Shown here piece after piece: positions 2,711-36,728 of a stretch of DNA of 44,588 bases (position 1 is the first letter of the stretch; every line of letters begins with the position of its first letter). This DNA is from an uncultured Candidatus Saccharibacteria bacterium (GTDB lineage: Bacteria; Patescibacteriota; Saccharimonadia; Saccharimonadales; UBA7683): the NCBI GenBank assembly GCA_964632215.1, contig CAZWBG010000001.1, positions 1 through 44,588 on the forward strand. Direction: 5' to 3'. The notes under the pieces were generated by a model, which was not told the origin of the DNA, made no database searches, and saw only the letters and a program-made list of their open reading frames with translations. Both the position numbers and the translations under genes were made by a program.

Positions 2711-3064
2711 ATGGCACATTCCACCACGTTTATGCTTTCGCGCGCTGAGGGTGCAACCACTTGGCGACGAAACCAAAATACTGTGCGACACAGTTTTAGC
2801 TCCAAACAGTTTGGTCCAATCGCACACACAGTATTAGTTGTTCTACTTCTATGCATTATGGGCTTGTTATATTTGGCACAAATTAACAAAACAAATGCTT
2901 ATACGTATCCAATTAATGAACTTGAAACTAAGAAATCTACACTTCTAGACGAACACGCTCAGTTAGAAATTGAAGCGGCACGACTTGGTTCTCTTGAGAA
3001 CGTTAAAAATAGTACCGTTGCTAAGAATATGACTAATCCAAGTGGCGTTGATACTATTCGCTAG
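2711..3064 (+). CDS. ftsL: FtsL-like bitopic cell division protein
   Basis: Lies between rsmH and ftsI. One TM helix followed by a coiled coil (INELETKKSTLLDEHAQLEIEAARLGSLENV). Confidence 0.7.
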   Translation: MAHSTTFMLSRAEGATTWRRNQNTVRHSFSSKQFGPIAHTVLVVLLLCIMGLLYLAQINKTNAYTYPINELETKKSTLLDEHAQLEIEAARLGSLENVKNSTVAKNMTNPSGVDTIR

Positions 3065-3142
3065 GCTGCTTTTACGCAGGTTATCTTGGTAATGGTAAGA
3101 TAACTAGGTGACAGTAGCCTAGCCTGGCTTAAGACTCATATT

Positions 3143-4951
3143 ATGAACCCACGCGCATATCGATCCCAACCCAAAAAAACCGTGGCAATGCAGACTAAGA
3201 AGCCACGTACTTCAGAAGCTCGTTCCAAGAGCTTACAATTTCTTGTGCTTGCAATTGGTCTTGTACTCATTGGCCGGCTTTTTTATCTGCAAGTGGTGAA
3301 GCACGGCCACTACAATAACTTGGCTATTGCTGAACATCAGAAGAAGTTTACTGTGCCAGCAACTCGGGGTAGCTTGTATTTTCGTGATGGTGAACAGGTA
3401 GTACCAGCGGTCATCAATTCTAGTGTTTACACACTTTACGCTGATCCTGGTGAAATCAAAAATCCTCAAGAGAGTGCCAAATACATCAGCCAAAAGTTAT
3501 CTTTACCTGAGAGTGAGTTGTTAGATAAGCTTAAAAAAGAAAATACCTCATATGTAGTACTGACTAAGCGACTAAGTCGAGCTCAAGTAGACGATTTGCT
3601 AAGCGAAAAAGAGAAGCTACGGGGCATTAATGTAACCTCGGTACCACAGCGTGTATATCCAGAGGGTATACTAGGCTCACAGTTGCTTGGCTTTGTGAAT
3701 GACGAGGGTGTGGGGCAGTATGGATTAGAAGGGGCTATTAACGAGAAGTTAGAGGGTACTGCAGGCACGCTCAAGGCTATTACTGACGTACGTGGAGTAC
3801 CACTCAGCTTAGATGATTCAACGAATATAGACCAAGAACCGCAGGATGGTAAAAGCTATGTGTTGACTATAGATCGTAATGTACAGGCTAAAGCTGAAGA
3901 GGCGTTAGCCGAGGGTCTTAAGAAAACTGGTGCCACTAGAGGTAGCGTGATTGTAGTTGACCCTAATACTGGTGCGGTACGGGCGATGGCTAATCAACCG
4001 ACTTTTGACCCCGCTCGGTATTTCGAGGTGGGCGATGATGCCTATGAGCGTTTCCGTAACCGTGTGGTGAGTGATCCGTACGAGGCAGGGTCGGTGATAA
4101 AAGTTCTGACTATGGCTGCAGGCATAAATGACGGCGTTGTGACGAAGGATTCACGCTTTAATAACACTGGATCCGTGCAGGTTGACGATGCCAATATTCG
4201 TAACGTTGAGCAGACTGTCAATGGTTCGCGCTCTATGACAGACGTTTTTAAATACTCACTTAATACTGGAGTGGTACATGTTCTCTCACAGCTTGGTGGT
4301 GGATCTATTAATGCTCAGGCACGTGACAAACTCTACAATTATTTTACTGAGCACTACGGCTTTGGCCAGTTAACTGGTATTGAGCAGAGTGGGGAGGTGA
4401 CTGGTAGTATTTATGGGCCACGGACTGAGCAGGGTAATAATGTTCGATATGCCAATATGAGTTTTGGCCAAGGTATGAACGTATCTATGGTACAGGTTGC
4501 CTCGGCGTTTTCTGCTTTGGTTAATGGCGGTAATTATTATCAGCCTCACATACTTGAAGGGGAGCGGGCAGTAGATGGTAGTTTGCAGTCTCAGCCACCG
4601 CAACCAACGCGTAATGTTGTTAGTGAGGCAACTTCAGCCCAGATCAAGGAGATGACTCACAGCGCCCTGCAGGAGACACCAGCAGTGGCTCGTTTTGTAA
4701 AGCCTGGCTATCGAATTGGTGGTAAGACTGGTACTTCTCAGACTATTGACCCAAAAACTGGTAAATATACGGATCAGAATGCCATCGGTACGTACCTAGG
4801 TTATGGTGGTGATAGTACCCCCAGATATGTCATAATGGTACGAGTAGATGATTCAAAGCTATCGGGTTACTCTGGTAGCGAAGCTGCCGCTCCGATATTC
4901 GGTGAAATCAGTAATTGGCTGCTTGAATACTATAATGTAAAACCGGAGTAA
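3143..4951 (+). CDS. ftsI: Class B penicillin-binding protein (FtsI/PBP2-type transpeptidase)
   Basis: N-terminal TM, RG.IY-like PATRGSLY, SxxK (GSVIK), SxN (YSLN), KTG (GGKTGT). Confidence 0.93.
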   Translation: MNPRAYRSQPKKTVAMQTKKPRTSEARSKSLQFLVLAIGLVLIGRLFYLQVVKHGHYNNLAIAEHQKKFTVPATRGSLYFRDGEQVVPAVINSSVYTLYADPGEIKNPQESAKYISQKLSLPESELLDKLKKENTSYVVLTKRLSRAQVDDLLSEKEKLRGINVTSVPQRVYPEGILGSQLLGFVNDEGVGQYGLEGAINEKLEGTAGTLKAITDVRGVPLSLDDSTNIDQEPQDGKSYVLTIDRNVQAKAEEALAEGLKKTGATRGSVIVVDPNTGAVRAMANQPTFDPARYFEVGDDAYERFRNRVVSDPYEAGSVIKVLTMAAGINDGVVTKDSRFNNTGSVQVDDANIRNVEQTVNGSRSMTDVFKYSLNTGVVHVLSQLGGGSINAQARDKLYNYFTEHYGFGQLTGIEQSGEVTGSIYGPRTEQGNNVRYANMSFGQGMNVSMVQVASAFSALVNGGNYYQPHILEGERAVDGSLQSQPPQPTRNVVSEATSAQIKEMTHSALQETPAVARFVKPGYRIGGKTGTSQTIDPKTGKYTDQNAIGTYLGYGGDSTPRYVIMVRVDDSKLSGYSGSEAAAPIFGEISNWLLEYYNVKPE

Positions 4952-29365: not shown

Positions 29366-29441
29366 GGCCCCGTCGTCTAGTGGTTAGGATATCTGGTTCT
29401 CATCCAGAAGATCGCGGGTTCGAATCCCGCCGGGGTCACCA
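29366..29441 (+). tRNA. tRNA-Glu (anticodon CTC)
   Basis: Acceptor GGCCCCG/CGGGGTC, anticodon arm TCTGG-TTCTCAT-CCAGA, T arm GCGGG-TTCGAAT-CCCGC, encoded CCA. TTGCAT-17-TAACAT promoter at 29314-29342. Confidence 0.97.
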
Positions 29442-30936
29442 AAGAAGACTCATCACGCGTTGGTGAGCCTTTTTGATTTGCAGCCAATCTGTAAAGTGAG
29501 CTCAATTTTGCCGTTCCAAACTGCCTTTTAGCAAGATCATAACTCAGACCTTCTGGAAACACTAGATTTTGGTAAATGATGCGATGCTCAACAGATGCAT
29601 CAAGCCAGATTCGGGGTGCGTTCGACATAAATTGGAGCGCGTAGTCTATTGAGTTGGTTTTGAAATCATTCATAGATCCTACCTCATCAAGTTGTTTACG
29701 CGTTCTTGTTTCTTCTGCATCTAAGTTATTAATCAGCGCTTTCTTTTCATCTGTAGTAATTTGACCGCTCACAAGCATCTCAACAGTCTTATTCTTGCGG
29801 ACTGTGAGACTCTCTAGGGCCTTGTGTAGTTGCTTCTGCTTAGTAGCGAGGGTCTGTGTTTCATCACGCCATACGCGCACGATCATCTCCTTCAGAAACT
29901 TCTCCATACCTGGGTCGGGTTTTAGGGAATTGAGCAACTCAATAAATTGCTTGTGCATCTCATCGGGTTTAATAGACGGCACATGGCATCGCGAGCAATG
30001 GTACCGCGGCGACGGTATTCCTGAGCCATTGCGAGGGCTGCTCCCCGTCATTGGTTTTTCGCAATTAGTGCACAGTAAGAATCTTCGTAAAGGAAATTCT
30101 GGATTGTTCTGTTTATATTTTGCTGTCGAGTTCTTGTTTTTCTTGAGTACGTCCTGGTTACGATAAAAAGTACTAGGGGATATAATTCCACCGAACTTCG
30201 AAGGTAATAGCTGTCCGTCAGTATGTTGGCTTTTTTCTAGGCCCGCATAGATTGGATTTCTCAAAGCCTTACTAATAGCCTGTATTTGCATCTTTTTCCC
30301 TGAAGCTGACTTTAGTCCGATCTCTTCACAAAGCACTACAAGCCCCGCCATTGTGTGAGCCCCCGACGAGTACGCTTCAAGTATCGTAGCCATATTGTCG
30401 GCTATTCCTTCAATTGGCTCAACGGTCGATCTTCCCAGGACGTCTCTGACGTTCCTCAGGCCTAAAGGAGCCTTACTCATTCGATAGCCTTCCTTTGCCT
30501 GGCGTTTCATATTTTCCTTCACGCGTGCGGACTTAAGGCGATTATCATGATTGGCGATTACAGCTTCAAGGCTCTGAACAAGCTCGTCATTCAGATTCTC
30601 ATCTAAGCTTGAGTTTATGTTTTTATACTCGACGCCCGATAGAGACAACCTTGCCCTTAATGCAAAGAAATCAACTGCACTCCGAGTCAGGCGATCCGTT
30701 TGATAGGTGATTAGGTACGAGATTTGATTTCGACTAGCTTCAAGAGCTGACAACATCTCTTTCATTGCAGGTCGTTCTAGTGTTTTTGCCGAAGCACCGT
30801 CGTCATGATAGATCTTTTCCACCAGAACATTATTGCGTGATGCCCATTCTTGACACATAAATTGCTGCGTCTCAAGACTCGCACCATCAACCTGCTTAAG
30901 CGTAGAGACTCGAAGATAGATTACAGCACGTTTCAT
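29377..30936 (-). CDS. Large serine recombinase (integrated-state form, last 19 aa from antisense tRNA)
   Basis: Catalytic YLRVS, DRLTR, GYRMSKAPLG, LRNPIYAG, zinc ribbon C-x2-C...C-x2-C (CTNC, CSRC) and a coiled coil. Confidence 0.92.
   Translation of the reverse strand: MKRAVIYLRVSTLKQVDGASLETQQFMCQEWASRNNVLVEKIYHDDGASAKTLERPAMKEMLSALEASRNQISYLITYQTDRLTRSAVDFFALRARLSLSGVEYKNINSSLDENLNDELVQSLEAVIANHDNRLKSARVKENMKRQAKEGYRMSKAPLGLRNVRDVLGRSTVEPIEGIADNMATILEAYSSGAHTMAGLVVLCEEIGLKSASGKKMQIQAISKALRNPIYAGLEKSQHTDGQLLPSKFGGIISPSTFYRNQDVLKKNKNSTAKYKQNNPEFPLRRFLLCTNCEKPMTGSSPRNGSGIPSPRYHCSRCHVPSIKPDEMHKQFIELLNSLKPDPGMEKFLKEMIVRVWRDETQTLATKQKQLHKALESLTVRKNKTVEMLVSGQITTDEKKALINNLDAEETRTRKQLDEVGSMNDFKTNSIDYALQFMSNAPRIWLDASVEHRIIYQNLVFPEGLSYDLAKRQFGTAKLSSLYRLAANQKGSPTRDESSLVTPAGFEPAIFWMRTRYPNH
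29436..29442 (+). repeat. attL core TCACCAA
   Basis: Identical to 34540-34546 and overlaps the tRNA ACCA terminus. Confidence 0.8.
29447..29474 (+). terminator. Element-supplied terminator for the tRNA, antisense within the recombinase CDS
   Basis: CTCATCA-cgcgt-TGGTGAG stem followed by TTTTT. Confidence 0.6.
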
Positions 30937-31130
30937 GATTCAATATTATCATTGTTTTTGTTGTTTTTGGAACGAATATATTGACGTACACCTATTCTTA
31001 CCACCGTTTCAGTGTCATTTATTAGTTGCAATAACTCTTCGTTGGTAATATCTTTTGCCGATGCACCCAAAAGCTTACGAGCTTCCATTAAAGAAATGAT
31101 TGGTTTTTGTGGAGATAGCGAATTAGCCAA
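30933..31130 (-). CDS. Small helical protein, possible excisionase/directionality factor
   Basis: ISLMEARKLLG resembles a short HTH start. Its stop overlaps the recombinase start (ATGA). Confidence 0.65.
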   Translation of the reverse strand: MANSLSPQKPIISLMEARKLLGASAKDITNEELLQLINDTETVVRIGVRQYIRSKNNKNNDNIES

Positions 31131-31345
31131 AGTGTCATATTGACCCTTCCTGCTTGCTCCCGTCCAGACACCTTCGTCGCGGGGTTATTATCTGTTATTC
31201 AGACAAGCTTTGTGATATTGGCTAAACTACGCTTATATGTTTCTATTATATCACTTTTTCGGTGTTGCTACGCTATAATAAGCAACAAGTCGCTAGTGCG
31301 GCGGTAGCCTAGAGCCACGTATATAACGAAGGTATGGTTATAAAT

Positions 31346-31440
31346 CCACGAAAAGAAACAGCTCGTCATGAGTACCTCTTTTCGTGGTTACTACTGGAAA
31401 CGGTAGTAGGGGCGCAAGCCTCGCTCGTGGCGGGCTTTTT
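31346..31440 (+). promoter_or_regulatory. Structured leader/attenuator-like RNA
   Basis: 11-bp stem 31346-31356/31377-31387 and 13-bp stem 31360-31372/31424-31436 followed by a U-run, plus GAAA- and GCAA-capped hairpins. Confidence 0.55.
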
Positions 31441-31477
31441 AGTTTGTCACGGCCACAAACTAAAAAGAGGAGGGTAC

Positions 31478-31720
31478 ATGGCAAAGAAACCACTATTTTA
31501 CGAGGGTATGACAAACGGAGAACGCTTACGATCGGTAATCTGGGTTATCGTTATTCTCGTAGCGCTTGGAGTTTTTCTATTTGGTGCGTTTTTTCTACCT
31601 CGTTCGTCTGGCAACGATACAAAGCAGGATCCAGGTGAAAGTGACTACGAATATCATCAACGTATTCAAGGTCAGGACGAGGAGCAATATAAAGACTGTG
31701 GCTTTAAGCCAACTTGCTAG
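31478..31720 (+). CDS. Small single-pass membrane protein
   Basis: GAGGAGG RBS before ATG 31478, one TM helix, C-terminal CGFKPTC. Confidence 0.65.
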   Translation: MAKKPLFYEGMTNGERLRSVIWVIVILVALGVFLFGAFFLPRSSGNDTKQDPGESDYEYHQRIQGQDEEQYKDCGFKPTC

Positions 31721-31803
31721 CTCCTCAAGCTATCATTGACATCCGATGATTTTATATGATTGATGTTATAATTATCGAAGATAACCAGTGAGAGATTGGA
31801 GAA

Positions 31804-33162
31804 ATGATGCTGAATATGTCGAATTGGCCAACTGTGACCGAAAAGGTTGTTAACTTGCAGCTCGATGAGTCAAACATACGCATAGATATACAAAACCCAT
31901 CTCAGGACGCGATAATCCAGGATTTATTTGCCAACGAAGGGGCGATGCAAATCGTCGAGAGTGTTCTGAGAAATGGGTTTTTTAACAACGAGCTCCCCGT
32001 CGTATTAAAAAATAGCTCCAAGTATGTAGTGCTGGAAGGCAACAGGCGCGTTGCTGCACTTAAGGCTATTATTAACCCACGACTCGTGCCGACTTTTGAA
32101 GCCAAGATCAACGCACTTATTAACGGACAAGATATTAGTCCGCTAAGAGAGGTAGAGCTAAAAGTTGCTCCTTCTCGCGACGATGCCTCTCGCCTCATTT
32201 CCTCAATTCACACAATTCAATCACGCAAGCCTTGGCGACCTTTAAGACAAGCGTACTTCTACTATGCTCAGCTAGAGAAAGGTAAGCGCAAGATTGAAGA
32301 CTTAATTCTTGAATACCCAAATATAGATATCCCTAGATTCGTAAAGATGTGGGAAATGCATAAAATTGCTCAGTCAATAAAGTATGACGATGCCGACACG
32401 CAGACCGATGTCAGTTCTCGTGGCTTCAAAATCAGTACCTTCGAACGTCTATATCAAAATGATAAGTTTCGTGAAAAATTTGGACTATCTTTCGACAAAT
32501 ACGGCAGGGTGAAGGTTAGCGCCAAAATGAGTGATTTCAAGGACTCCCTGAAACAGGTTGTAACCGATATTGTCACTGGGGAGATTGATTCTCGTAAGAT
32601 CAACAAGGAGTCACAGCTTGATGGCTATTTAGAGAAGTGGAGTTCACCTGATAAAAAAGGTGAGGGGGCGCCGAAAACAAGTGACGACTTTGAACCCGTG
32701 GAGGTACCAAAGAAAGCCTCTACCCCGAAGGCGTTAATACCAAAAAGTGTTCAGACGACGCTGGGAAGCGCAGGAGTTGAGCGTCGGCTCAAAGAGCTAC
32801 AGAAACTCCCATATAGAAACTATCCTAACGCCGCCCACGACCTATTACGCAGTCTTCTCGAGTGCGGATTAAAGGCTTACTGTCAAAAAGAAGGTATTAC
32901 ACTGCAGGCACGACGCCAAGGTGGATATGTATTCCTACACGACGCACTAACGGAGACGAGAAATCATCTGCAATCAAACAACATCCGCAAAGATCTTTTG
33001 CAGGTGATAGACAAGACTGTTAGCAAAGCCGAGAAATTCTCAGTAAAAGACAACCTCGACGCCATAAATCACAATCACAACATCTTCTCTACGGGTGATG
33101 AAGTAAAAGAAGCTTGGGATACCATAAGCGCTTTGGTACAATATGTATTAGATCCTAAATAA
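31804..33162 (+). CDS. ParB/Srx-like N-terminal domain protein with a helical C-terminal domain (possibly HEPN-like)
   Basis: ParB-type motif YVVLEGNRRVAALK after NGFFNNELPVV. C-terminal LLRSLLE...LDAINHN. Confidence 0.7.
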   Translation: MMLNMSNWPTVTEKVVNLQLDESNIRIDIQNPSQDAIIQDLFANEGAMQIVESVLRNGFFNNELPVVLKNSSKYVVLEGNRRVAALKAIINPRLVPTFEAKINALINGQDISPLREVELKVAPSRDDASRLISSIHTIQSRKPWRPLRQAYFYYAQLEKGKRKIEDLILEYPNIDIPRFVKMWEMHKIAQSIKYDDADTQTDVSSRGFKISTFERLYQNDKFREKFGLSFDKYGRVKVSAKMSDFKDSLKQVVTDIVTGEIDSRKINKESQLDGYLEKWSSPDKKGEGAPKTSDDFEPVEVPKKASTPKALIPKSVQTTLGSAGVERRLKELQKLPYRNYPNAAHDLLRSLLECGLKAYCQKEGITLQARRQGGYVFLHDALTETRNHLQSNNIRKDLLQVIDKTVSKAEKFSVKDNLDAINHNHNIFSTGDEVKEAWDTISALVQYVLDPK

Positions 33163-33177
33163 TACAAAAACCAAAAA

Positions 33178-34032
33178 ATGATAACAGCAAAAATACAAAG
33201 AAAGCTTCTATTCACACCGTTGCGCTATCCAGGTGGCAAAACATCTCTTTTCGAGTACTTTGACAAGGTCATCAAAGAGAATAACCTCAAGGATGTATGC
33301 TACATCGAACCCTACGCAGGTGGAGCGGGGGCTGCTTTATCCCTCTTGTTGTTAGAGAAGGTGGACCGACTTGTTATTAACGACTACGATAAGGCCATAT
33401 ACGCTTTCTGGAAGAGTATCCTGGATCAAACGGATGAGTTTGTCGGGTTAGTGCAAAGCACGCCTCTCACTATAGAGGAGTGGAAGAAACAGAAAGCCAT
33501 ATATGCCAACGGCTCTGATGACTTACTAGAGTTAGGTTTTGCGACTTTTTATCTAAATCGAACTAACAGATCTGGAATCCTGACTGGCGGACCGATCGGC
33601 GGAATGGCACAACAGGGCAAATGGTTACTTGATGCACGCTTTAATAAACCAAAACTTATCGAGAGAATTAAGCTCATATCGCTATATCGTGACCGAATCA
33701 CAGTATCGAACACTGATGGACTTGAAGTAATACGCAAATACTCAAAAAATCCCACCTCCTTTTTCTACATAGACCCCCCGTATTACGATAAAGGCCAATG
33801 TCTCTACCTCAACTCCTACAAGCACGAAGACCACGAGAGACTCGCTAAGTTACTGAATAAGCAATCAACAGCAAAGTGGATATTGAGCTACGATAATGTT
33901 CCTCAAATTAAGGAACTCTACAAAACACGCAAAAAGCAGTACGAATTTTCTCTGCACTATCAAGCCCACTCGAGCAAAGAAGGCTCTGAACTTATAGTAT
34001 TCTCTGACAAACTTATAGTTCCCGAGGATTAG
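33178..34032 (+). CDS. Dam/D12-class N6-adenine DNA methyltransferase
   Basis: PLRYPGGK, motif I YIEPYAGGAG, FYLNRTNRSG, catalytic IDPPY. Confidence 0.93.
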   Translation: MITAKIQRKLLFTPLRYPGGKTSLFEYFDKVIKENNLKDVCYIEPYAGGAGAALSLLLLEKVDRLVINDYDKAIYAFWKSILDQTDEFVGLVQSTPLTIEEWKKQKAIYANGSDDLLELGFATFYLNRTNRSGILTGGPIGGMAQQGKWLLDARFNKPKLIERIKLISLYRDRITVSNTDGLEVIRKYSKNPTSFFYIDPPYYDKGQCLYLNSYKHEDHERLAKLLNKQSTAKWILSYDNVPQIKELYKTRKKQYEFSLHYQAHSSKEGSELIVFSDKLIVPED

Positions 34033-34427
34033 TCCAATACACTCTGTATATTAAACTGGATGGCCGCAAGGCGACTCGATCCAAACATCTGGTAATGCTT
34101 CATCATCATATCGATGGCACGCAGTTTATTTTGTGTCGTTTCTGTGCCACCATTAATTATGCTCGTTAATTTAAGTAGCAAAAGGTCGGGCTCCATTGTC
34201 TGCATCTGACCGAGTTTTTCCGATAACCACTTGGGCCGATTATGTGTTAGGTTTCGTGCTGTTTCAGATGTATAACCCGCGCTTAAGGCTGACCTATAGC
34301 AATTGCCGAATGACGGGCTTGTTACGCTAAAGTAGAGCTCAATGAACTTGTCTTGTCGCGGGTCTAGGGTCGAGAGGGTTCCTTTGGGCTCCACCCCCCG
34401 TCCTTCGTGAAATACTTCTATACTCAT
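34029..34427 (-). CDS. Terminase small subunit-like protein
   Basis: LDPRQDKFIELY...GNCYRSALSAGYTSETA matches the TerS N-terminal HTH pattern (L..KQ..F...Y...NA..AA..AGYS..TA). Confidence 0.7.
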   Translation of the reverse strand: MSIEVFHEGRGVEPKGTLSTLDPRQDKFIELYFSVTSPSFGNCYRSALSAGYTSETARNLTHNRPKWLSEKLGQMQTMEPDLLLLKLTSIINGGTETTQNKLRAIDMMMKHYQMFGSSRLAAIQFNIQSVLD

Positions 34428-34540
34428 ACACCCGTTCCTATAACTGCTGGAATGCTTCTAGCTACTGTTGTACTACGGAGTAGGTCATACCATGATTGTA
34501 TCTCTGACAAGATATCGTTCCAATTCGAACGCAGGTAGTT
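34424..34540 (-). other. Stranded 3' end of the recombinase gene (38 codons plus TGA)
   Basis: Reads NYLRSNWNDILSEIQSWYDLLRSTTVARSIPAVIGTGV* in frame with the recombinase when joined through TCACCAA. The stop overlaps the TerS-like ATG. Confidence 0.75.
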
Positions 34541-34546
34541 CACCAA
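34540..34546 (+). repeat. attR core TCACCAA
   Basis: Identical to 29436-29442 and directly followed by a terminator. Confidence 0.8.
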
Positions 34547-34581
34547 CAAAACAGCTCACCACCGGTGGGCTTTTTTGTTGG
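34543..34581 (+). terminator. Probable original tRNA-Glu terminator displaced by integration
   Basis: AGCTCACC-acc-GGTGGGCT stem with TTTTTT, extended by CCAACAAAA/TTTTGTTGG. Confidence 0.75.
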
Positions 34582-34689
34582 TTATTCTCGCAGAGAAGCG
34601 AAGCCGCGCAGCGGGTACGTTCATAAGCAGCTCTCGCAGGAGCTCGCTCCGAGAAAGCTCACAGAAGTAATAATGTCGGGTAAAGTGTA

Positions 34690-36627
34690 CTAGCGATTTG
34701 ATTCGGATACCCTGAAAGCCTGAGCATGACGCAGCCGAACATTCCAACGATCTTCAATTAGTTTACTGGGCTTTATTGGCGCAAGGTGGCTATATGTATC
34801 AATAATGTGCTGGCGGATTGCTGCTACTGTCTCGTAAGGACTATCTGCTTCACTAACGACTGTGTCCACGAGGCCGATTTCATGCTGCGCTTCACTGCTA
34901 GGGCTGAGCGCTAAAATAGTATCAGTACGATTTTGCGGCGTTGCGTTGGCACCGTATACGATAACTGATGCTGCACCAGGTTCGGCAACAGTCATCAGCC
35001 CTTTGCTTAACACTGCCAGCGAGTCACCGCGAGGGGATGTCACTAAACCTCCACCGCTACCCTGTAGACCTGTAATGATACTCATGATTGGCTGGCCATA
35101 GGTGCGGTAGCGCGCCAAGATGTTCGCGATGTCTTCGAACTGGCCTTGAAGTTCTGATTGTAGGGACGGTTCGGCACCAGGGGTGTCAGTTAACAGTATA
35201 AGCGGCAGTTGCAGTCTATCCCCCAGGTTTACCATGCGTAGTAGATACTTAAGATCAGAGGGTTTTGGTGTCGAAAGAATTTTTGAAACCTCTCCGTCGA
35301 CAATCCTGTATGACGGCTGATCGCCTGCTACCATAAAAGACCGCATGCCTATACGGCCAATACCTGCAATAATTGATGGATATATATACTCACCTCGATC
35401 TTTGTCGTAAAAGTGATTATAAAGTGGCACTACGTCTTGGAACGCTTGCTGTAGGACCATTTCGGTATCAGGGCGAGCTACGTCGAATAAAAGATTTCGG
35501 TAGCGATCGGTGAGCATTTGACCTATGGCGGTTTGCTGAGCGTCGGCTTCAGTTTTGCCCGCTGCGAGTTCGGTGGCGTACAGATCCGCTATATTACGCT
35601 CATGGCGTGGTTCCGCAGAAATAGTAATGTGAGCGTCTCTCTGATTATCTTCATATAGCGGTGGTGCGATTATGTTTTGCGAGAAGCGGAAGAATCGCTG
35701 CTCACCATCGGGCCCCACAAGTTGTGTAGGAGGAATAATGCTGCCATCAAATTTTGGGGTTTGTGCACTATCAACACTCAAAAAGCTACCAAGGTACTGG
35801 GTTAATTCACTGGTATTATGTACCAATACGTCGATGTTGCGCTGTAAAGCATGTACCTCTACCCGCTGTGCGCCCTCGGCTACTTCGCGATTTTCTTGAG
35901 CTGCGATAACACGGCCACCTGCAAACCCCATTTGAGTGCCAGTGTACGCAATGCGCAGGTCTGCTCGGGGCATTGAACTAGCAGTCACCCCACCCCAGAC
36001 TTCGCCAAGGAGCACGGCAACATTGGGCACATGAGGGGCTTTTTCTTTTAAGGCTTCGAGAGCTACTACGCCGCGCTCCATCTGGTATAGTGCTCGACCA
36101 TTTTCGTCTTGACGGGCTCCTCCCGATGAATAGATAGTTATGAGTGGACGCTTGGTGGCTTCGGCCAGCTCAATGGCCTGAAGGAGTTTCTCGCCAGCAA
36201 CAGACGAGAGTGAACCACCCATGAAGTCATAATGCATAGCATAGATTACGACATCGTGATCGTCTATTTTGCCAACACCAAACTCTGCGGCTTCGGGCTT
36301 GCCTTTTTCTTCTCGGTTCCTTGAGTGCTTGTCTTTGTAGACTTCAATCTTTTCGCCAATACGCTTAAAGAATGGAATGGTATCAAACTGCGGTATGAGA
36401 TGCGTGCCTCGCGGGTGAAAATCTACCTGTTCAAGGATAGACTCGAGTTCTTTCGGTATTTCTTTACTACTCCACCGTGGTGTGGCTTCAACCAGTTGTT
36501 CGGCAAGTGTTGGTGCGATAACTTGATGTGAAGAATCGAGCTCTTGGGCTAGTATCTGCGCAATATCGTCACAGATGACCTCACCCCCTATAAAGTGGTC
36601 TTCGTTAGTTATTGCTTCTTTGCTCAT
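34690..36627 (-). CDS. Fused acyl-CoA carboxylase carboxyltransferase (AccD-like beta plus AccA-like alpha)
   Basis: Beta motifs FMGGSL..AGEK, SSGGARQDE, GGVTAS, GFAGGRVI. Alpha motifs DTPGA, GSGGG, EPGAASVI. Confidence 0.82.
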   Translation of the reverse strand: MSKEAITNEDHFIGGEVICDDIAQILAQELDSSHQVIAPTLAEQLVEATPRWSSKEIPKELESILEQVDFHPRGTHLIPQFDTIPFFKRIGEKIEVYKDKHSRNREEKGKPEAAEFGVGKIDDHDVVIYAMHYDFMGGSLSSVAGEKLLQAIELAEATKRPLITIYSSGGARQDENGRALYQMERGVVALEALKEKAPHVPNVAVLLGEVWGGVTASSMPRADLRIAYTGTQMGFAGGRVIAAQENREVAEGAQRVEVHALQRNIDVLVHNTSELTQYLGSFLSVDSAQTPKFDGSIIPPTQLVGPDGEQRFFRFSQNIIAPPLYEDNQRDAHITISAEPRHERNIADLYATELAAGKTEADAQQTAIGQMLTDRYRNLLFDVARPDTEMVLQQAFQDVVPLYNHFYDKDRGEYIYPSIIAGIGRIGMRSFMVAGDQPSYRIVDGEVSKILSTPKPSDLKYLLRMVNLGDRLQLPLILLTDTPGAEPSLQSELQGQFEDIANILARYRTYGQPIMSIITGLQGSGGGLVTSPRGDSLAVLSKGLMTVAEPGAASVIVYGANATPQNRTDTILALSPSSEAQHEIGLVDTVVSEADSPYETVAAIRQHIIDTYSHLAPIKPSKLIEDRWNVRLRHAQAFRVSESNR

Positions 36628-36728
36628 AATTTGGCTTAATATACCATTTTCAGCATTTGTTCGCAACTAATGTGACGGCGCGAGAGGTGTTCTAGACTAA
36701 TACTCGTGAGCCCCTTCAAGATTAGTAG

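What the first reader, a model, noticed from the sequence alone, without database searches (positions are those of the whole stretch)
29436..34546. Minimal phage-satellite-like element whose TerS-like gene joins the integrase operon only after excision
Seen: the 5104-bp predicted circle would carry a three-gene ATGA-coupled run (65-aa ORF, recombinase, TerS-like ORF) driven from an extended -10 (TGATATAAT near 31245-31253). Integrated, the TerS-like gene is stranded at the far end, cut off from that promoter. No capsid, primase or replicase gene is visible. Established: PICIs use their own TerS to hijack helper-phage packaging, and tycheposons are tRNA-targeting serine-recombinase elements that can carry TerS. 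Inference: an ultra-small satellite in a CPR host in which excision switches on packaging.
Basis: partly seen in the sequence, partly recalled or inferred. Interest (0 to 1): 0.8.

Follow-up and report, generated by a model that had tools for sequence, protein, structure and literature searches.

The report
Tiny tRNA-inserted element with terminase gene
A 5.1-kb mobile element in an ultra-small (Saccharibacteria) bacterium is cut by its own insertion so that its recombinase gene and a phage-type DNA-packaging gene form one operon only when the element is a free circle. This layout is conserved in a family of very small defence-carrying elements and fits a minimal phage hitchhiker, but that lifestyle is not shown.

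Summary
Window 29443-34546 is a 5,104-bp element inserted at the last bases of tRNA-Glu(CUC), bounded by a 7-bp repeat (TCACCAA). A related genome shows the empty site. A 93-97% identical copy sits at another tRNA-Glu in a different genome.

The large serine recombinase (LSR) gene runs across the attachment site. Only the joined (circular) form encodes the full 538-aa protein, and its stop overlaps the start (ATGA) of a 132-aa small-terminase (TerS) homologue. In 14 related Saccharibacteria elements (2.9-6.9 kb; tRNA-Glu, Pro, Lys, Leu) the tail stops within 47 nt of terS; four others differ. One relative's joined form exists as a metagenome contig.

TerS homology is real but remote (SPP1 G1P, hhalign 81%, E 1e-5). 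The cargo is the PD-Lambda-5 defence pair, and the element also carries the orphan LOOT RNA. It has no capsid, replication or large-terminase gene.

Not shown: excision of this copy, packaging, a helper phage, or absence of an own terS promoter (a 9/12 sigma-70-like site lies upstream). The satellite reading is plausible (about 40%) but undemonstrated. It is a new variant of known kinds (PLE/PICI-like satellites; Mx8-type split integrase).

The parts
29366..29441 (+). tRNA-Glu(CUC), intact. Its last bases (TCACCA) are the left copy of the attachment core.
   Evidence: ARAGORN; Rfam tRNA, 66 bits.
29436..29442 (.). attL core TCACCAA (left copy of the 7-bp direct repeat). The crossover lies somewhere within it.
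   Evidence: Empty-site comparison with G008.
29443..34546 (.). The integrated element, 5,104 bp. The boundaries are ambiguous by the 7-bp core.
   Evidence: Empty site in G008. Same element at another tRNA-Glu in OU701451.1.
29449..29475 (+). Hairpin plus T-run supplied by the element. It replaces the tRNA's own terminator and lies antisense inside the LSR coding region.
   Evidence: Terminator scan. Stronger in tRNA sense than in LSR sense in all 13 elements folded.
29377..30936 (-). Large serine recombinase, integrated form (519 aa). The last 19 residues are read antisense through the tRNA. Residues 1-500 are element-encoded.
   Evidence: Pfam Resolvase 5.6e-25, Recombinase 1.7e-5, Zn_ribbon_recom 8e-4; phrog_95 integrase 4.5e-67.
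30933..31130 (-). 65-aa ORF, ATGA-coupled to the LSR. Predicted as two helices; function unknown.
   Evidence: Conserved in 12 elements. AF2 pLDDT 82. No informative family or fold match.
31245..31253 (-). Extended -10-like TGATATAAT upstream of the 65-aa ORF/LSR run. The -35 is poor.
   Evidence: Read directly. Not tested functionally.
31306..31422 (+). LOOT RNA (Rfam RF03000), full length, divergent from the LSR run and upstream of the small membrane ORF.
   Evidence: 68.8 bits against gathering score 46.4. Present in 13 related elements.
31478..31720 (+). 80-aa ORF with one predicted membrane helix. Conserved in the OU701451.1 copy and in L025.
31804..33162 (+). PD-Lambda-5 component A (ParB-like N-terminal domain protein, 452 aa).
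   Evidence: PADLOC PD-Lambda-5_A, E 2.3e-50; phrog_9592 3.6e-40.
33178..34032 (+). PD-Lambda-5 component B (D12-class N6-adenine DNA methyltransferase, 284 aa).
   Evidence: PADLOC PD-Lambda-5_B, E 3e-115; Pfam MethyltransfD12 4.4e-21.
34029..34427 (-). 132-aa small-terminase (Terminase_2-type) homologue.
   Evidence: Pfam 23.2 bits, below the cut-off of 26.1. phrog_51 1.3e-6. 23 of 24 family members hit Terminase_2. SF6 TerS in PDB, E 3.2e-5. hhalign to SPP1 G1P 80.6%, E 1.3e-5, residues 21-118. BFVD hits are mostly TerS.
34424..34546 (-). Coding sequence of the LSR's native C-terminal tail (LVNYLRSNWNDILSEIQSWYDLLRS..., 38 residues after LV). It is separated from the LSR by integration, and its stop overlaps the TerS-like ATG.
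   Evidence: In-silico junction. Homologous tails in 10 tRNA-Glu elements and in a real 532-aa protein, P0003.
34495..34523 (-). Sigma-70-like TTGGAA-17-TACAAT inside the tail region. This is a possible independent promoter for the TerS-like gene in this copy.
   Evidence: 9 of 12 matches, not above shuffle expectation. The -10 is not conserved outside the closest relatives, and 10 of 17 elements have no candidate.
34540..34546 (.). attR core TCACCAA (right copy).
34553..34582 (+). Host hairpin plus T-run. It is the tRNA's original terminator and now lies between the host accD-accA gene and the element's right end.
   Evidence: Homologous to the sequence directly after the tRNA in G008.

Best explanation
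**Shown**

- This is a 5.1-kb integrative element of a Saccharibacteria genome, moved by a large serine recombinase (LSR) that targets the 3' end of tRNA-Glu.
- Its attachment site (attP) lies inside the LSR reading frame, 38 codons before the natural stop.
- Integration therefore does two things. It swaps the LSR's conserved C-terminal helix for 19 residues read antisense through the tRNA. It also moves the next gene, a small-terminase (TerS) homologue, 5 kb away to the far end, behind the host's terminator hairpin.
- Excision restores one compact run: 65-aa ORF, full-length LSR, TerS homologue.
- The cargo is the PD-Lambda-5 anti-phage pair, plus a LOOT RNA and small-membrane-protein unit.

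**Inferred**

- The TerS homologue is made mainly from the LSR promoter in the circular state.
- It then directs the terminase of an infecting helper phage to the element's DNA, so the element spreads in phage particles as a minimal satellite.
- Excision is probably triggered from outside, for example by a phage-encoded directionality factor as in the PLE elements of Vibrio, because no such factor is recognisable in the element.

**How likely**

- Mobile element with an integration-split operon: about 0.95.
- TerS expression mainly in the circle: about 0.6.
- Packaging by a helper phage: about 0.4.
For: - **Element boundaries and mobility.** The empty site is seen in a related genome. A near-identical copy lies at another tRNA-Glu with other flanks.
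- **attP lies inside the LSR gene.** The frame stays open across the junction. A second element in the same genome, with an LSR 66% identical, has a homologous tail at its far end. A real 532-aa homologue with this tail is encoded on a contig that equals the predicted attP junction. The tail is conserved to about residue 24, beyond a 25-bp half-site.
- **Conserved coupling.** In 14 loci the LSR tail stops -8 to +47 nt from the TerS-like start, always on the same strand, and five have an ATGA-type overlap.
- **No conserved internal promoter.** 10 of 17 loci have no sigma-70-like candidate between the core and the TerS-like start. A host terminator hairpin lies just outside the core.
- **TerS homology**.
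- **TerS is not needed for recombination.** Closely related LSR elements lack it.
- **Defence cargo, as in known satellites**.
- **Minimal relatives.** Relatives of 2.9 and 3.3 kb hold only the LSR, TerS-like gene, LOOT and small membrane ORFs.
- **Precedent.** An LSR satellite whose directionality factor is phage-encoded is known: PLE/PexA (10.1101/218164).
Against: - No excised or joined form of this copy was found. Only contigs could be laid and none showed a joint.
- No relative of the TerS-like protein and no attP junction was found in IMG/VR.
- Phage records gave no match to the TerS-like protein or to the element's DNA.
- No large terminase (Terminase_6N, TerL_ATPase) is present in the 98%-complete genome.
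- The element has no replication gene, no iterons and no tandem repeats. A 3-7-kb circle would therefore need another route to a headful-sized substrate.
- The window's copy has a 9/12 promoter-like site upstream of the TerS-like gene.
- A hairpin followed by a short U-rich run sits in the LSR sense just before the core and could attenuate read-through.
- In four loci (L036/L037, L039, L040) the TerS-like gene is 0.19-2.8 kb from the tail.
- The attP contig of the relative could come from a tandem array rather than a free circle; a tandem array is seen in L039.
Confidence: 0.4

Rival explanations
1. The TerS homologue has been taken over as a sequence-specific DNA-binding accessory or regulator of the element. 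It could be an architectural factor at attP, or a repressor or activator of the LSR or LOOT promoters. On this reading it has nothing to do with packaging, and the element spreads by other means such as natural transformation or co-transfer with other elements.
For: - The strongest similarity is in the helix-turn-helix domain.
- The protein is co-expressed with the recombinase in the circle, which is when attP must be used.
- There is no helper phage, no large terminase, no replication module and no virome trace.
- The elements are far smaller than any capsid capacity.
Against: - Homology extends over the oligomerisation helices of SPP1 G1P, not only the DNA-binding domain (phrog_51 residues 17-117).
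- LSRs 66-67% identical work in elements without it, so it is not a needed cofactor.
- By established knowledge, large serine integrases need no accessory DNA-binding protein for integration.
- A directionality factor co-expressed with the integrase in the incoming circle would block integration.
Confidence: 0.25
2. The TerS homologue is itself an anti-phage device. It would act as a decoy small terminase that captures the large terminase of an infecting phage and blocks phage packaging, without transfer of the element.
For: - The elements are defence carriers: PD-Lambda-5, a PD-T4-6-like kinase, SRA-HNH and RM cargo.
- No replication or capsid genes are present.
- Packaging interference by satellite-encoded terminase-related proteins is established for SaPIs (own knowledge).
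Against: - Its fixed position directly after the LSR across attP, same strand, in 14 loci contrasts with the freely swapping defence cargo.
- A constitutive defence gene would be expected to be expressed in the integrated state, yet it sits behind a terminator without a conserved promoter.
Confidence: 0.12
3. The split has no regulatory meaning. attP happens to lie in the 3' end of the LSR gene, the tail is dispensable, and the TerS-like gene is expressed from its own promoter in the integrated state.
For: - A sigma-70-like TTGGAA-17-TACAAT lies 60 nt upstream of the TerS-like ATG in the window.
- An AGGA-type ribosome-binding site precedes the ATG.
- The distal half of the tail is poorly conserved and shows only a mild third-position bias.
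Against: - The promoter-like site is no better than shuffled sequence. It is missing in 10 of 17 relatives.
- The proximal 24 tail residues are conserved across LSRs only about 30% identical.
- Tail stop and TerS start stay abutted or overlapping across clades that target five different tRNAs.
Confidence: 0.15
4. It is a decayed prophage remnant that merely retains an integrase and a small-terminase gene.
For: An integrase plus a TerS gene next to a tRNA is what many prophage stumps look like.
Against: - All ORFs are intact.
- The same gene set is 93-97% identical at a different site in another genome.
- The compact architecture recurs in 17 or more loci with exchangeable cargo, and the TerS-like family has 211 clusters.
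- The element's DNA has no similarity to any phage record.
Confidence: 0.03

Closest known systems
[quoted passage not shown]
   Same: - It is a phage satellite moved by a large serine recombinase.
- It encodes no directionality factor of its own; the factor (PexA) is supplied by the helper phage, so excision reports infection (10.1101/218164).
- It protects the host against phage.
   Different: - PLEs are about 18 kb and have their own replication initiator and capsid-remodelling genes.
- They do not insert in tRNA genes.
- They have no TerS homologue placed after the integrase, and attP is not inside the integrase gene.
- Helper dependence is demonstrated for PLE and unknown here.
PICIs / SaPIs that encode their own small terminase (Terminase_2 type)
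   Same: A chromosomal island carries a TerS homologue without a large terminase or capsid genes. In SaPIs this redirects the helper's terminase to the island's pac site (own knowledge; the tycheposon preprint summarises it). Defence cargo is common.
   Different: - PICIs use tyrosine integrases and have Stl/AlpA-type regulators and a primase-replicase with an origin.
- They measure 10-18 kb (PMC10085698).
- None of these features is present here.
PICMI (phage-inducible chromosomal minimalist islands) of Vibrionaceae
   Same: A very small satellite with reduced gene content, no capsid-remodelling genes and a defence system as cargo (10.1101/2023.07.18.549517).
   Different: - PICMIs insert at the end of fis.
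- Their three core proteins serve excision and replication.
- They are packaged as concatemers and carry no TerS.
- The element here has an LSR, no replication protein and a TerS homologue.
Tycheposons of Prochlorococcus
   Same: tRNA-targeting cargo-carrying integrative elements. A minority (27 of 937) carry a large serine recombinase, and the PICI-like ones carry terS or a capsid gene (10.1101/2020.12.28.424599).
   Different: - Tycheposons are larger and mostly use tyrosine recombinases.
- Many carry replication modules.
- PICI-like tycheposons were never seen with cargo.
- No split integrase-TerS operon is described for them.
Integrase genes that extend across attP: Myxococcus phage Mx8 (intP to intX) and Sulfolobus virus SSV1
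   Same: attP lies within the integrase coding sequence. Integration therefore gives the integrase a new 3' end, and in Mx8 this alters its properties (PMC6070905; PMC4383910).
   Different: - Those are tyrosine recombinases of complete viruses.
- Here it is a serine recombinase of a 3-7-kb element.
- Here the split also disconnects a downstream gene.
- The 2014 Islander paper stated that serine integrases were not known to target tRNA genes.
LOOT RNA motif (Rfam RF03000)
   Same: The element carries a full-length, above-threshold LOOT RNA.
   Different: Rfam lists it only as an sRNA-type gene, and the main text of the paper I recall as its source (Weinberg et al. 2017, PMC5737381) says nothing about it. 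Here it is a standard part of LSR/TerS islets, always upstream of small membrane ORFs.

Membership tests
Large serine recombinase (serine integrase) | N-terminal resolvase catalytic domain followed by a recombinase domain and a zinc-ribbon domain with an embedded coiled coil. | tested here: met
   Pfam Resolvase 5.6e-25 (residues 4-150), Recombinase 1.7e-5 (185-267), Zn_ribbon_recom 8e-4 (282-333, below its cut-off). phrog_95 integrase 4.5e-67. 23-27% identity to phage serine integrases.
Large serine recombinase (serine integrase) | Short att sites with a small crossover core and no long direct repeats. | tested here: met
   The core is 7 bp here (TCACCAA) and 6-13 bp in relatives. The P and B arms both carry TCGAA 11-12 nt from the core.
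Terminase_2 (PF03592) small terminase | Score above Pfam's gathering threshold. | tested here: not met
   The window's protein scores 23.2 bits against a cut-off of 26.1, and only residues 21-62 match. 23 of 24 family members match at E <= 0.01, best 6.1e-8.
Terminase_2 (PF03592) small terminase | Homology over both the N-terminal DNA-binding domain and the helical oligomerisation core. | tested here: met
   hhalign of the family profile against SPP1 G1P: 80.6%, E 1.3e-5, residues 21-118 against 8-129. phrog_51 residues 17-117. SF6 TerS 3zqp E 3.2e-5, DNA-binding domain only. The AF2 model is all-helical at pLDDT 68, and its BFVD matches are mostly named small terminases, best E 6.7e-4 with TM only 0.3-0.4.
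Terminase_2 (PF03592) small terminase | Forms a ring oligomer, binds a pac site and activates a large terminase. | not testable with these tools
   Needs biochemistry. No large terminase is present in the genome.
Phage satellite (general) | Excises and is packaged in particles of a helper phage. | tested here: inconclusive
   An attP-form contig exists for a relative. The Logan contigs for this copy show no joints. There are no hits in IMG/VR or phage records. No raw reads or virome data were available.
PICI (SatelliteFinder model) | The PICI model's five core components: as I recall them, integrase, AlpA/Stl-type regulator, primase-replicase, and packaging or capsid-morphogenesis genes. The paper passages read here name the number of components and mention integrase, regulator and primase. 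Size 10-18 kb is from my own knowledge. | tested here: not met
   No primase/replicase and no AlpA/Stl-type regulator appears in any ORF, and the element is 5.1 kb. Model description: PMC10085698. SatelliteFinder itself was not run.
PLE | The PLE model's core set: integrase, capR, the replication initiator repA, a nickase and other markers (PMC10085698). The integrase is an LSR (10.1101/218164). | tested here: not met
   Only the LSR is shared. No replication-initiator or capsid-related domain appears in any ORF.
PICMI | Insertion at the end of fis, with three core proteins for excision and replication. | tested here: not met
   Insertion is at tRNA-Glu, and no replication protein is present. 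Definition.
Tycheposon | tRNA-targeting site-specific integrase plus a replication module and cargo, defined in Prochlorococcus. | tested here: inconclusive
   tRNA targeting and cargo are met. The integrase is of the minority LSR type. The replication module is absent. No sequence comparison with tycheposon genes was made.
PD-Lambda-5 defence system | Two adjacent genes, component A and component B, both matching the PADLOC models. Here A is a ParB-like domain protein and B a methyltransferase. | tested here: met
   PD-Lambda-5_A E 2.3e-50 and PD-Lambda-5_B E 3e-115. The genes are adjacent and co-oriented. Anti-phage activity was not tested.
LOOT RNA (RF03000) | Covariance-model score above Rfam's gathering score over the full model. 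| tested here: met
   68.8 bits against 46.4, model positions 1-121 of 121.
Integrases that span attP (Mx8/SSV type) | attP lies inside the integrase ORF, so integration changes or splits the protein. | tested here: met
   This concerns how it works only. The recombinase family here is serine, not tyrosine.

The most novel reading that the evidence does not exclude
These are the smallest phage satellites yet seen (2.9-6.9 kb) and the first in the candidate phyla radiation. They would work through a self-contained physical switch. Because attP lies inside the recombinase gene, the DNA topology itself (integrated or circular) decides two things at once: which form of the recombinase is made (native tail or tRNA-antisense tail, perhaps with different directionality) and whether the packaging protein is made. 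No repressor, no own directionality factor and no replication module would be needed.
Probability: 0.2. Interest if true: 0.85.

Novelty: new variant of a known kind. Interest (0 to 1): 0.68.

Why it matters
**What it would show**
- Ultra-small, host-dependent Saccharibacteria exchange anti-phage systems on a dedicated family of 3-7-kb elements.
- Serine integrases, not only tyrosine integrases, have specialised on tRNA gene ends.
- Placing attP inside the integrase gene can work as a topology-sensing gene switch that also controls a downstream gene.

**What it makes testable**
- How genes move between CPR bacteria, for which neither plasmids nor many phages are known.
- It gives the orphan LOOT RNA a genomic home.

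**Practical value**
- The LSRs are compact, tRNA-directed integrases with clearly definable attP/attB pairs.
- They could serve as genetic tools for Saccharibacteria, which have only recently become tractable.

Tried and rejected
- **Reads for excision.** Only Logan contigs exist for the four metagenomes that hold the element. They showed no joints and only loose ends at the tRNA from other organisms. Two wastewater RNA-type runs and one soil run hold only 90-95% relatives in short pieces, which says nothing on transcription.
- **attP-specific pattern scans.** IMG/VR gave 0 matches. JGI metagenomes gave 1 match (L047), which is not a clean attP: only the last 40 nt of an LSR precede the core.
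- **Small contigs as circles.** Contigs of element size (L046, L050, L052, L053, L041-45) were tested for circular overlap. None is a circle. L052's 25-nt terminal repeat is a duplicated attL-like scar.
- **The 65-aa ORF.** Pfam, PHROGs and PADLOC gave nothing. A PDB profile search gave only chance EF-hand-like matches. AF2 gives a two-helix model without an informative fold match.
- **TerS-like fold against PDB.** The only match is a weak one to the SF6 DNA-binding domain (E 2). The model confidence is moderate.
- **Profile search for more distant TerS relatives.** It returned 211 clusters, but the listed 120 are all the same family, so it gave no link to phage-borne terminases.
- **Repeats.** No iterons or tandem repeats that could mark an origin or pac site were found.
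- **Prophage-remnant reading.** Rejected; see the rivals.
- **Directionality-factor reading of the TerS-like gene.** Judged unlikely. The gene is co-expressed with the integrase in the circle, and close LSR relatives lack it.

Full report
**1. What is there**

The genome is 929 kb in 15 contigs.

- tRNA-Glu(CUC) lies at 29366-29441.
- Downstream, on the minus strand, lie a 519-aa large serine recombinase (LSR, 30936-29377) and a 65-aa ORF (31130-30933) whose stop overlaps the LSR start.
- On the plus strand lie an 80-aa membrane ORF, a 452-aa ParB-like protein and a 284-aa D12 methylase.
- A 132-aa ORF lies on the minus strand at 34427-34029.
- The LSR frame runs antisense through the tRNA, so its last 19 residues are tRNA-encoded.
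- The 7-bp TCACCAA at 29436-29442 recurs at 34540-34546, which is 5,104 bp away.

**2. The boundaries are real**

- In a same-family genome (G008) the identical tRNA is followed directly by the homologue of window 34546-34600 (59 of 70 aligned bases identical). That is the empty site.
- In GCA_916098165.1 (OU701451.1) the same six genes (93-97% identical) lie at a different tRNA-Glu(CUC) with different neighbours. They are flanked by a 13-bp repeat.
- The element brings its own hairpin plus T-run to replace the tRNA's terminator (29449-29475).

**3. attP lies inside the LSR gene**

- Joining the ends keeps the LSR frame open. It yields a 538-aa protein ending ...LVNYLRSNWNDILSEIQSWYDLLRSTTVARSIPAVIGTGV, and its TGA overlaps the ATG of the 132-aa ORF.
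- A second element in the same genome sits at tRNA-Glu(UUC). It is 5,759 bp, its LSR is 66% identical and it has the same 64-aa upstream ORF. It gives a homologous tail when its ends are joined.
- A database protein of 532 aa (P0003) carries this tail. Its 4-kb contig has no tRNA. Left of the core it matches the LSR end, and right of the core it matches the far end of the second element. This is exactly the predicted attP junction.
- In ten tRNA-Glu elements the tail follows [LVM]V[NT]x[LIV]xSNWNxILxE[IVL]xxW[YHW]xxL. It is conserved to about residue 24, beyond a 25-bp half-site, and is variable thereafter.
- All nine further LSR homologues fetched from related genomes also abut a tRNA, either Glu or Met.

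**4. The split operon is conserved**

- The 132-aa protein belongs to a family of 211 clusters.
- Seventeen genome loci were fetched. Sixteen are labelled Saccharibacteria or Saccharimonadales (one only 'uncultured bacterium') and one is a bin labelled Salinisphaerales.
- In 14 loci the LSR frame crosses the inferred junction and stops -8 to +47 nt from the start of this gene, always on the same strand. Five have an ATGA-type overlap. These 14 include Logan contig L046 and clades whose LSRs are only 21-31% identical.
- The family as a whole targets tRNA-Glu, Pro, Lys, Leu and Gly. The tRNA-Gly locus, L040, is one of the exceptions below.
- Element sizes are 2.9-6.9 kb. The smallest (L038, 2,903 bp; L053, 3.3 kb) hold only the LSR, this gene, a LOOT RNA and small membrane ORFs.
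- The exceptions are L036/L037 and L039, with 1.7-2.8 kb between tail and gene, and L040, with about 190 nt.

**5. Is it TerS-like?**

The answer is yes, remotely.

- The window's protein is below Pfam's Terminase_2 cut-off (23.2 against 26.1 bits, helix-turn-helix only).
- 23 of 24 family members hit Terminase_2, and phrog_51 aligns residues 17-117.
- The family profile finds the SF6 small terminase in the PDB (E 3.2e-5).
- hhalign against SPP1 G1P gives 80.6%, E 1.3e-5, over residues 21-118. This covers the DNA-binding domain and the two core helices.
- The AF2 model (pLDDT 68) is all-helical, and its viral-library matches are mostly small terminases.
- No relative was found in 50,697 phage records or in IMG/VR.

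**6. Is the gene cut off from transcription when integrated?**

- Outside the right core lies the host hairpin plus T-run (34553-34582). Only about 115 nt of element DNA (the tail-coding part) precede the gene.
- The window has TTGGAA-17-TACAAT there (9 of 12 matches). TTGGAA is part of the conserved att arm, and the -10 is conserved only in the closest relatives.
- Ten of 17 loci have no candidate at all, and none exceeds shuffled sequence.
- In the LSR sense a hairpin just before the core is weaker than in the tRNA sense in all 13 elements folded, because G-U pairs become C-A mismatches. Read-through is therefore possible but perhaps attenuated.
- No transcript data could be obtained.

**7. 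Cargo and other parts**

- The ParB-like protein and the methylase are the two components of PD-Lambda-5 (E 2e-50 and 3e-115).
- Relatives carry other cargo. Examples are a PD-T4-6-like kinase, an SRA-HNH nuclease, an RM pair, an IrrE/HTH protein with a Beta_protein gene, KAP and AAA NTPases, and HAD plus NUDIX genes.
- No ORF of this element, and none of the larger cargo ORFs of relatives that were scanned, matched a capsid, portal, tail, large-terminase or replication family.
- A full-length LOOT RNA (RF03000) lies at 31306-31422, divergent from the LSR run and upstream of the membrane ORF. It recurs in 13 related elements in the same position.

**8. How common, and is TerS core?**

- Among 61 related genomes the LSR family occurs in 13, LOOT in 9 and the TerS-like gene in 1.
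- The TerS-like gene is thus an accessory module of a wider LSR-element family, and the LSR works without it. This argues against a role as recombination cofactor.

**9. Mechanism**

*Shown:* integration swaps the LSR tail and separates the TerS homologue from the LSR run.

*Inferred:*
- The TerS homologue is expressed chiefly from the circle.
- It serves to hand the element to a helper phage's terminase.
- Excision is triggered externally, as in PLE, where the phage supplies the directionality factor.

*Weak points:* there is no replication module, no helper phage, no virome trace, and a possible own promoter in this copy. I give the whole chain 0.4.

**10. Comparison and novelty**

- Integrases that span attP are known for Mx8 and SSV, which use tyrosine recombinases.
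- Serine integrases were reported in 2014 as not known to target tRNA genes, and a few tycheposons use them.
- LSR satellites (PLE) and minimal satellites (PICMI) exist.
- I found no published description of a 3-7-kb LSR element whose integrase gene spans attP and is coupled across it to a TerS homologue.
- Earlier notes of this scan report the same family in other genomes. They agree with my results but are not independent evidence.
- Verdict: a new variant of known kinds.

Noticed in passing
G000:C1:452126-457890 (locus L016 3126-8890), same genome, outside the window: A second element of the same LSR family lies at tRNA-Glu(UUC). It is 5,759 bp, its LSR is 66% identical, and it has the same small upstream ORF and a homologous split tail. 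It has no TerS-like gene and no LOOT RNA. Its cargo includes DUF4238, two ORFs I read by eye as pyridoxamine-oxidase-like and one as RidA-like (not scanned), and an 81-aa HTH ORF.
   Followed up: partly
window 31306-31422 (+): A LOOT RNA (Rfam RF03000, orphan sRNA family) is a standard part of these elements. It always lies directly upstream of one or two small membrane ORFs and opposite to the LSR. It may be a leader or sRNA controlling a small membrane protein, either a toxin/holin-like protein or one for exclusion.
   Followed up: partly
G000:C1:549336-549455 (locus L076 7337-7456): A second LOOT RNA occurs in the same genome. It is 1.2 kb from a tRNA-Met and followed by small membrane ORFs, with no recombinase nearby. 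It is probably a decayed islet.
   Followed up: partly
locus L017 (G008:C7) about 3240-3262: About 120 nt downstream of the empty tRNA-Glu site lies a second 19-nt copy of the tRNA's 3' end (AATCCCGCCGGGGTCACCA). It looks like the scar of an earlier insertion. L052 has a similar duplicated attL-like scar 150 nt outside its element.
   Followed up: no
locus L039 5569-12870: Two elements lie in tandem at tRNA-Glu(UUC). The outer LSR (559 aa) is contiguous with a tail in the chromosome. SurE and a DUF7380/DUF4209 gene lie between that tail and the TerS-like gene. Tandem arrays can therefore give attP-like junctions without free circles.
   Followed up: partly
locus L050 (a Logan contig from one of the runs that also hold the window's element): A third, different TerS-like/LSR/LOOT element (5.0 kb, AAA-ATPase cargo, tRNA-Lys-type core TGGAGG) occurs in one of the metagenomes that also hold the window's element.
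   Followed up: no
loci L041-L045 (Logan, five runs): A TerS-like gene with its tail, followed by a class-I SAM methyltransferase and a 239-aa ORF. The contigs end shortly after a 20-nt tRNA-Glu fragment, with no LSR on them. This may be an LSR-less derivative, or the contigs may simply break.
   Followed up: no
window 29449-29475 and the same place in 12 relatives: The hairpin inside the LSR's 3' coding region is 2-11 kcal/mol more stable in the tRNA sense than in the LSR sense. The peptide KKDPS..DESL is thus shaped by a terminator on the other strand.
   Followed up: yes
window 34690-36666 (-): A fused AccD-AccA carboxyltransferase (Carboxyl_trans plus ACCA domains) lies directly next to the element, on the same strand as the TerS-like gene. 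It is separated from the element only by the shared hairpin.
   Followed up: no
locus L047 (Ga0114940_10000580) about 3000-4320: The only JGI metagenome hit to the attP pattern has just the last 40 nt of an LSR before the core. Its TerS-like gene seems interrupted by about 0.8 kb.
   Followed up: no
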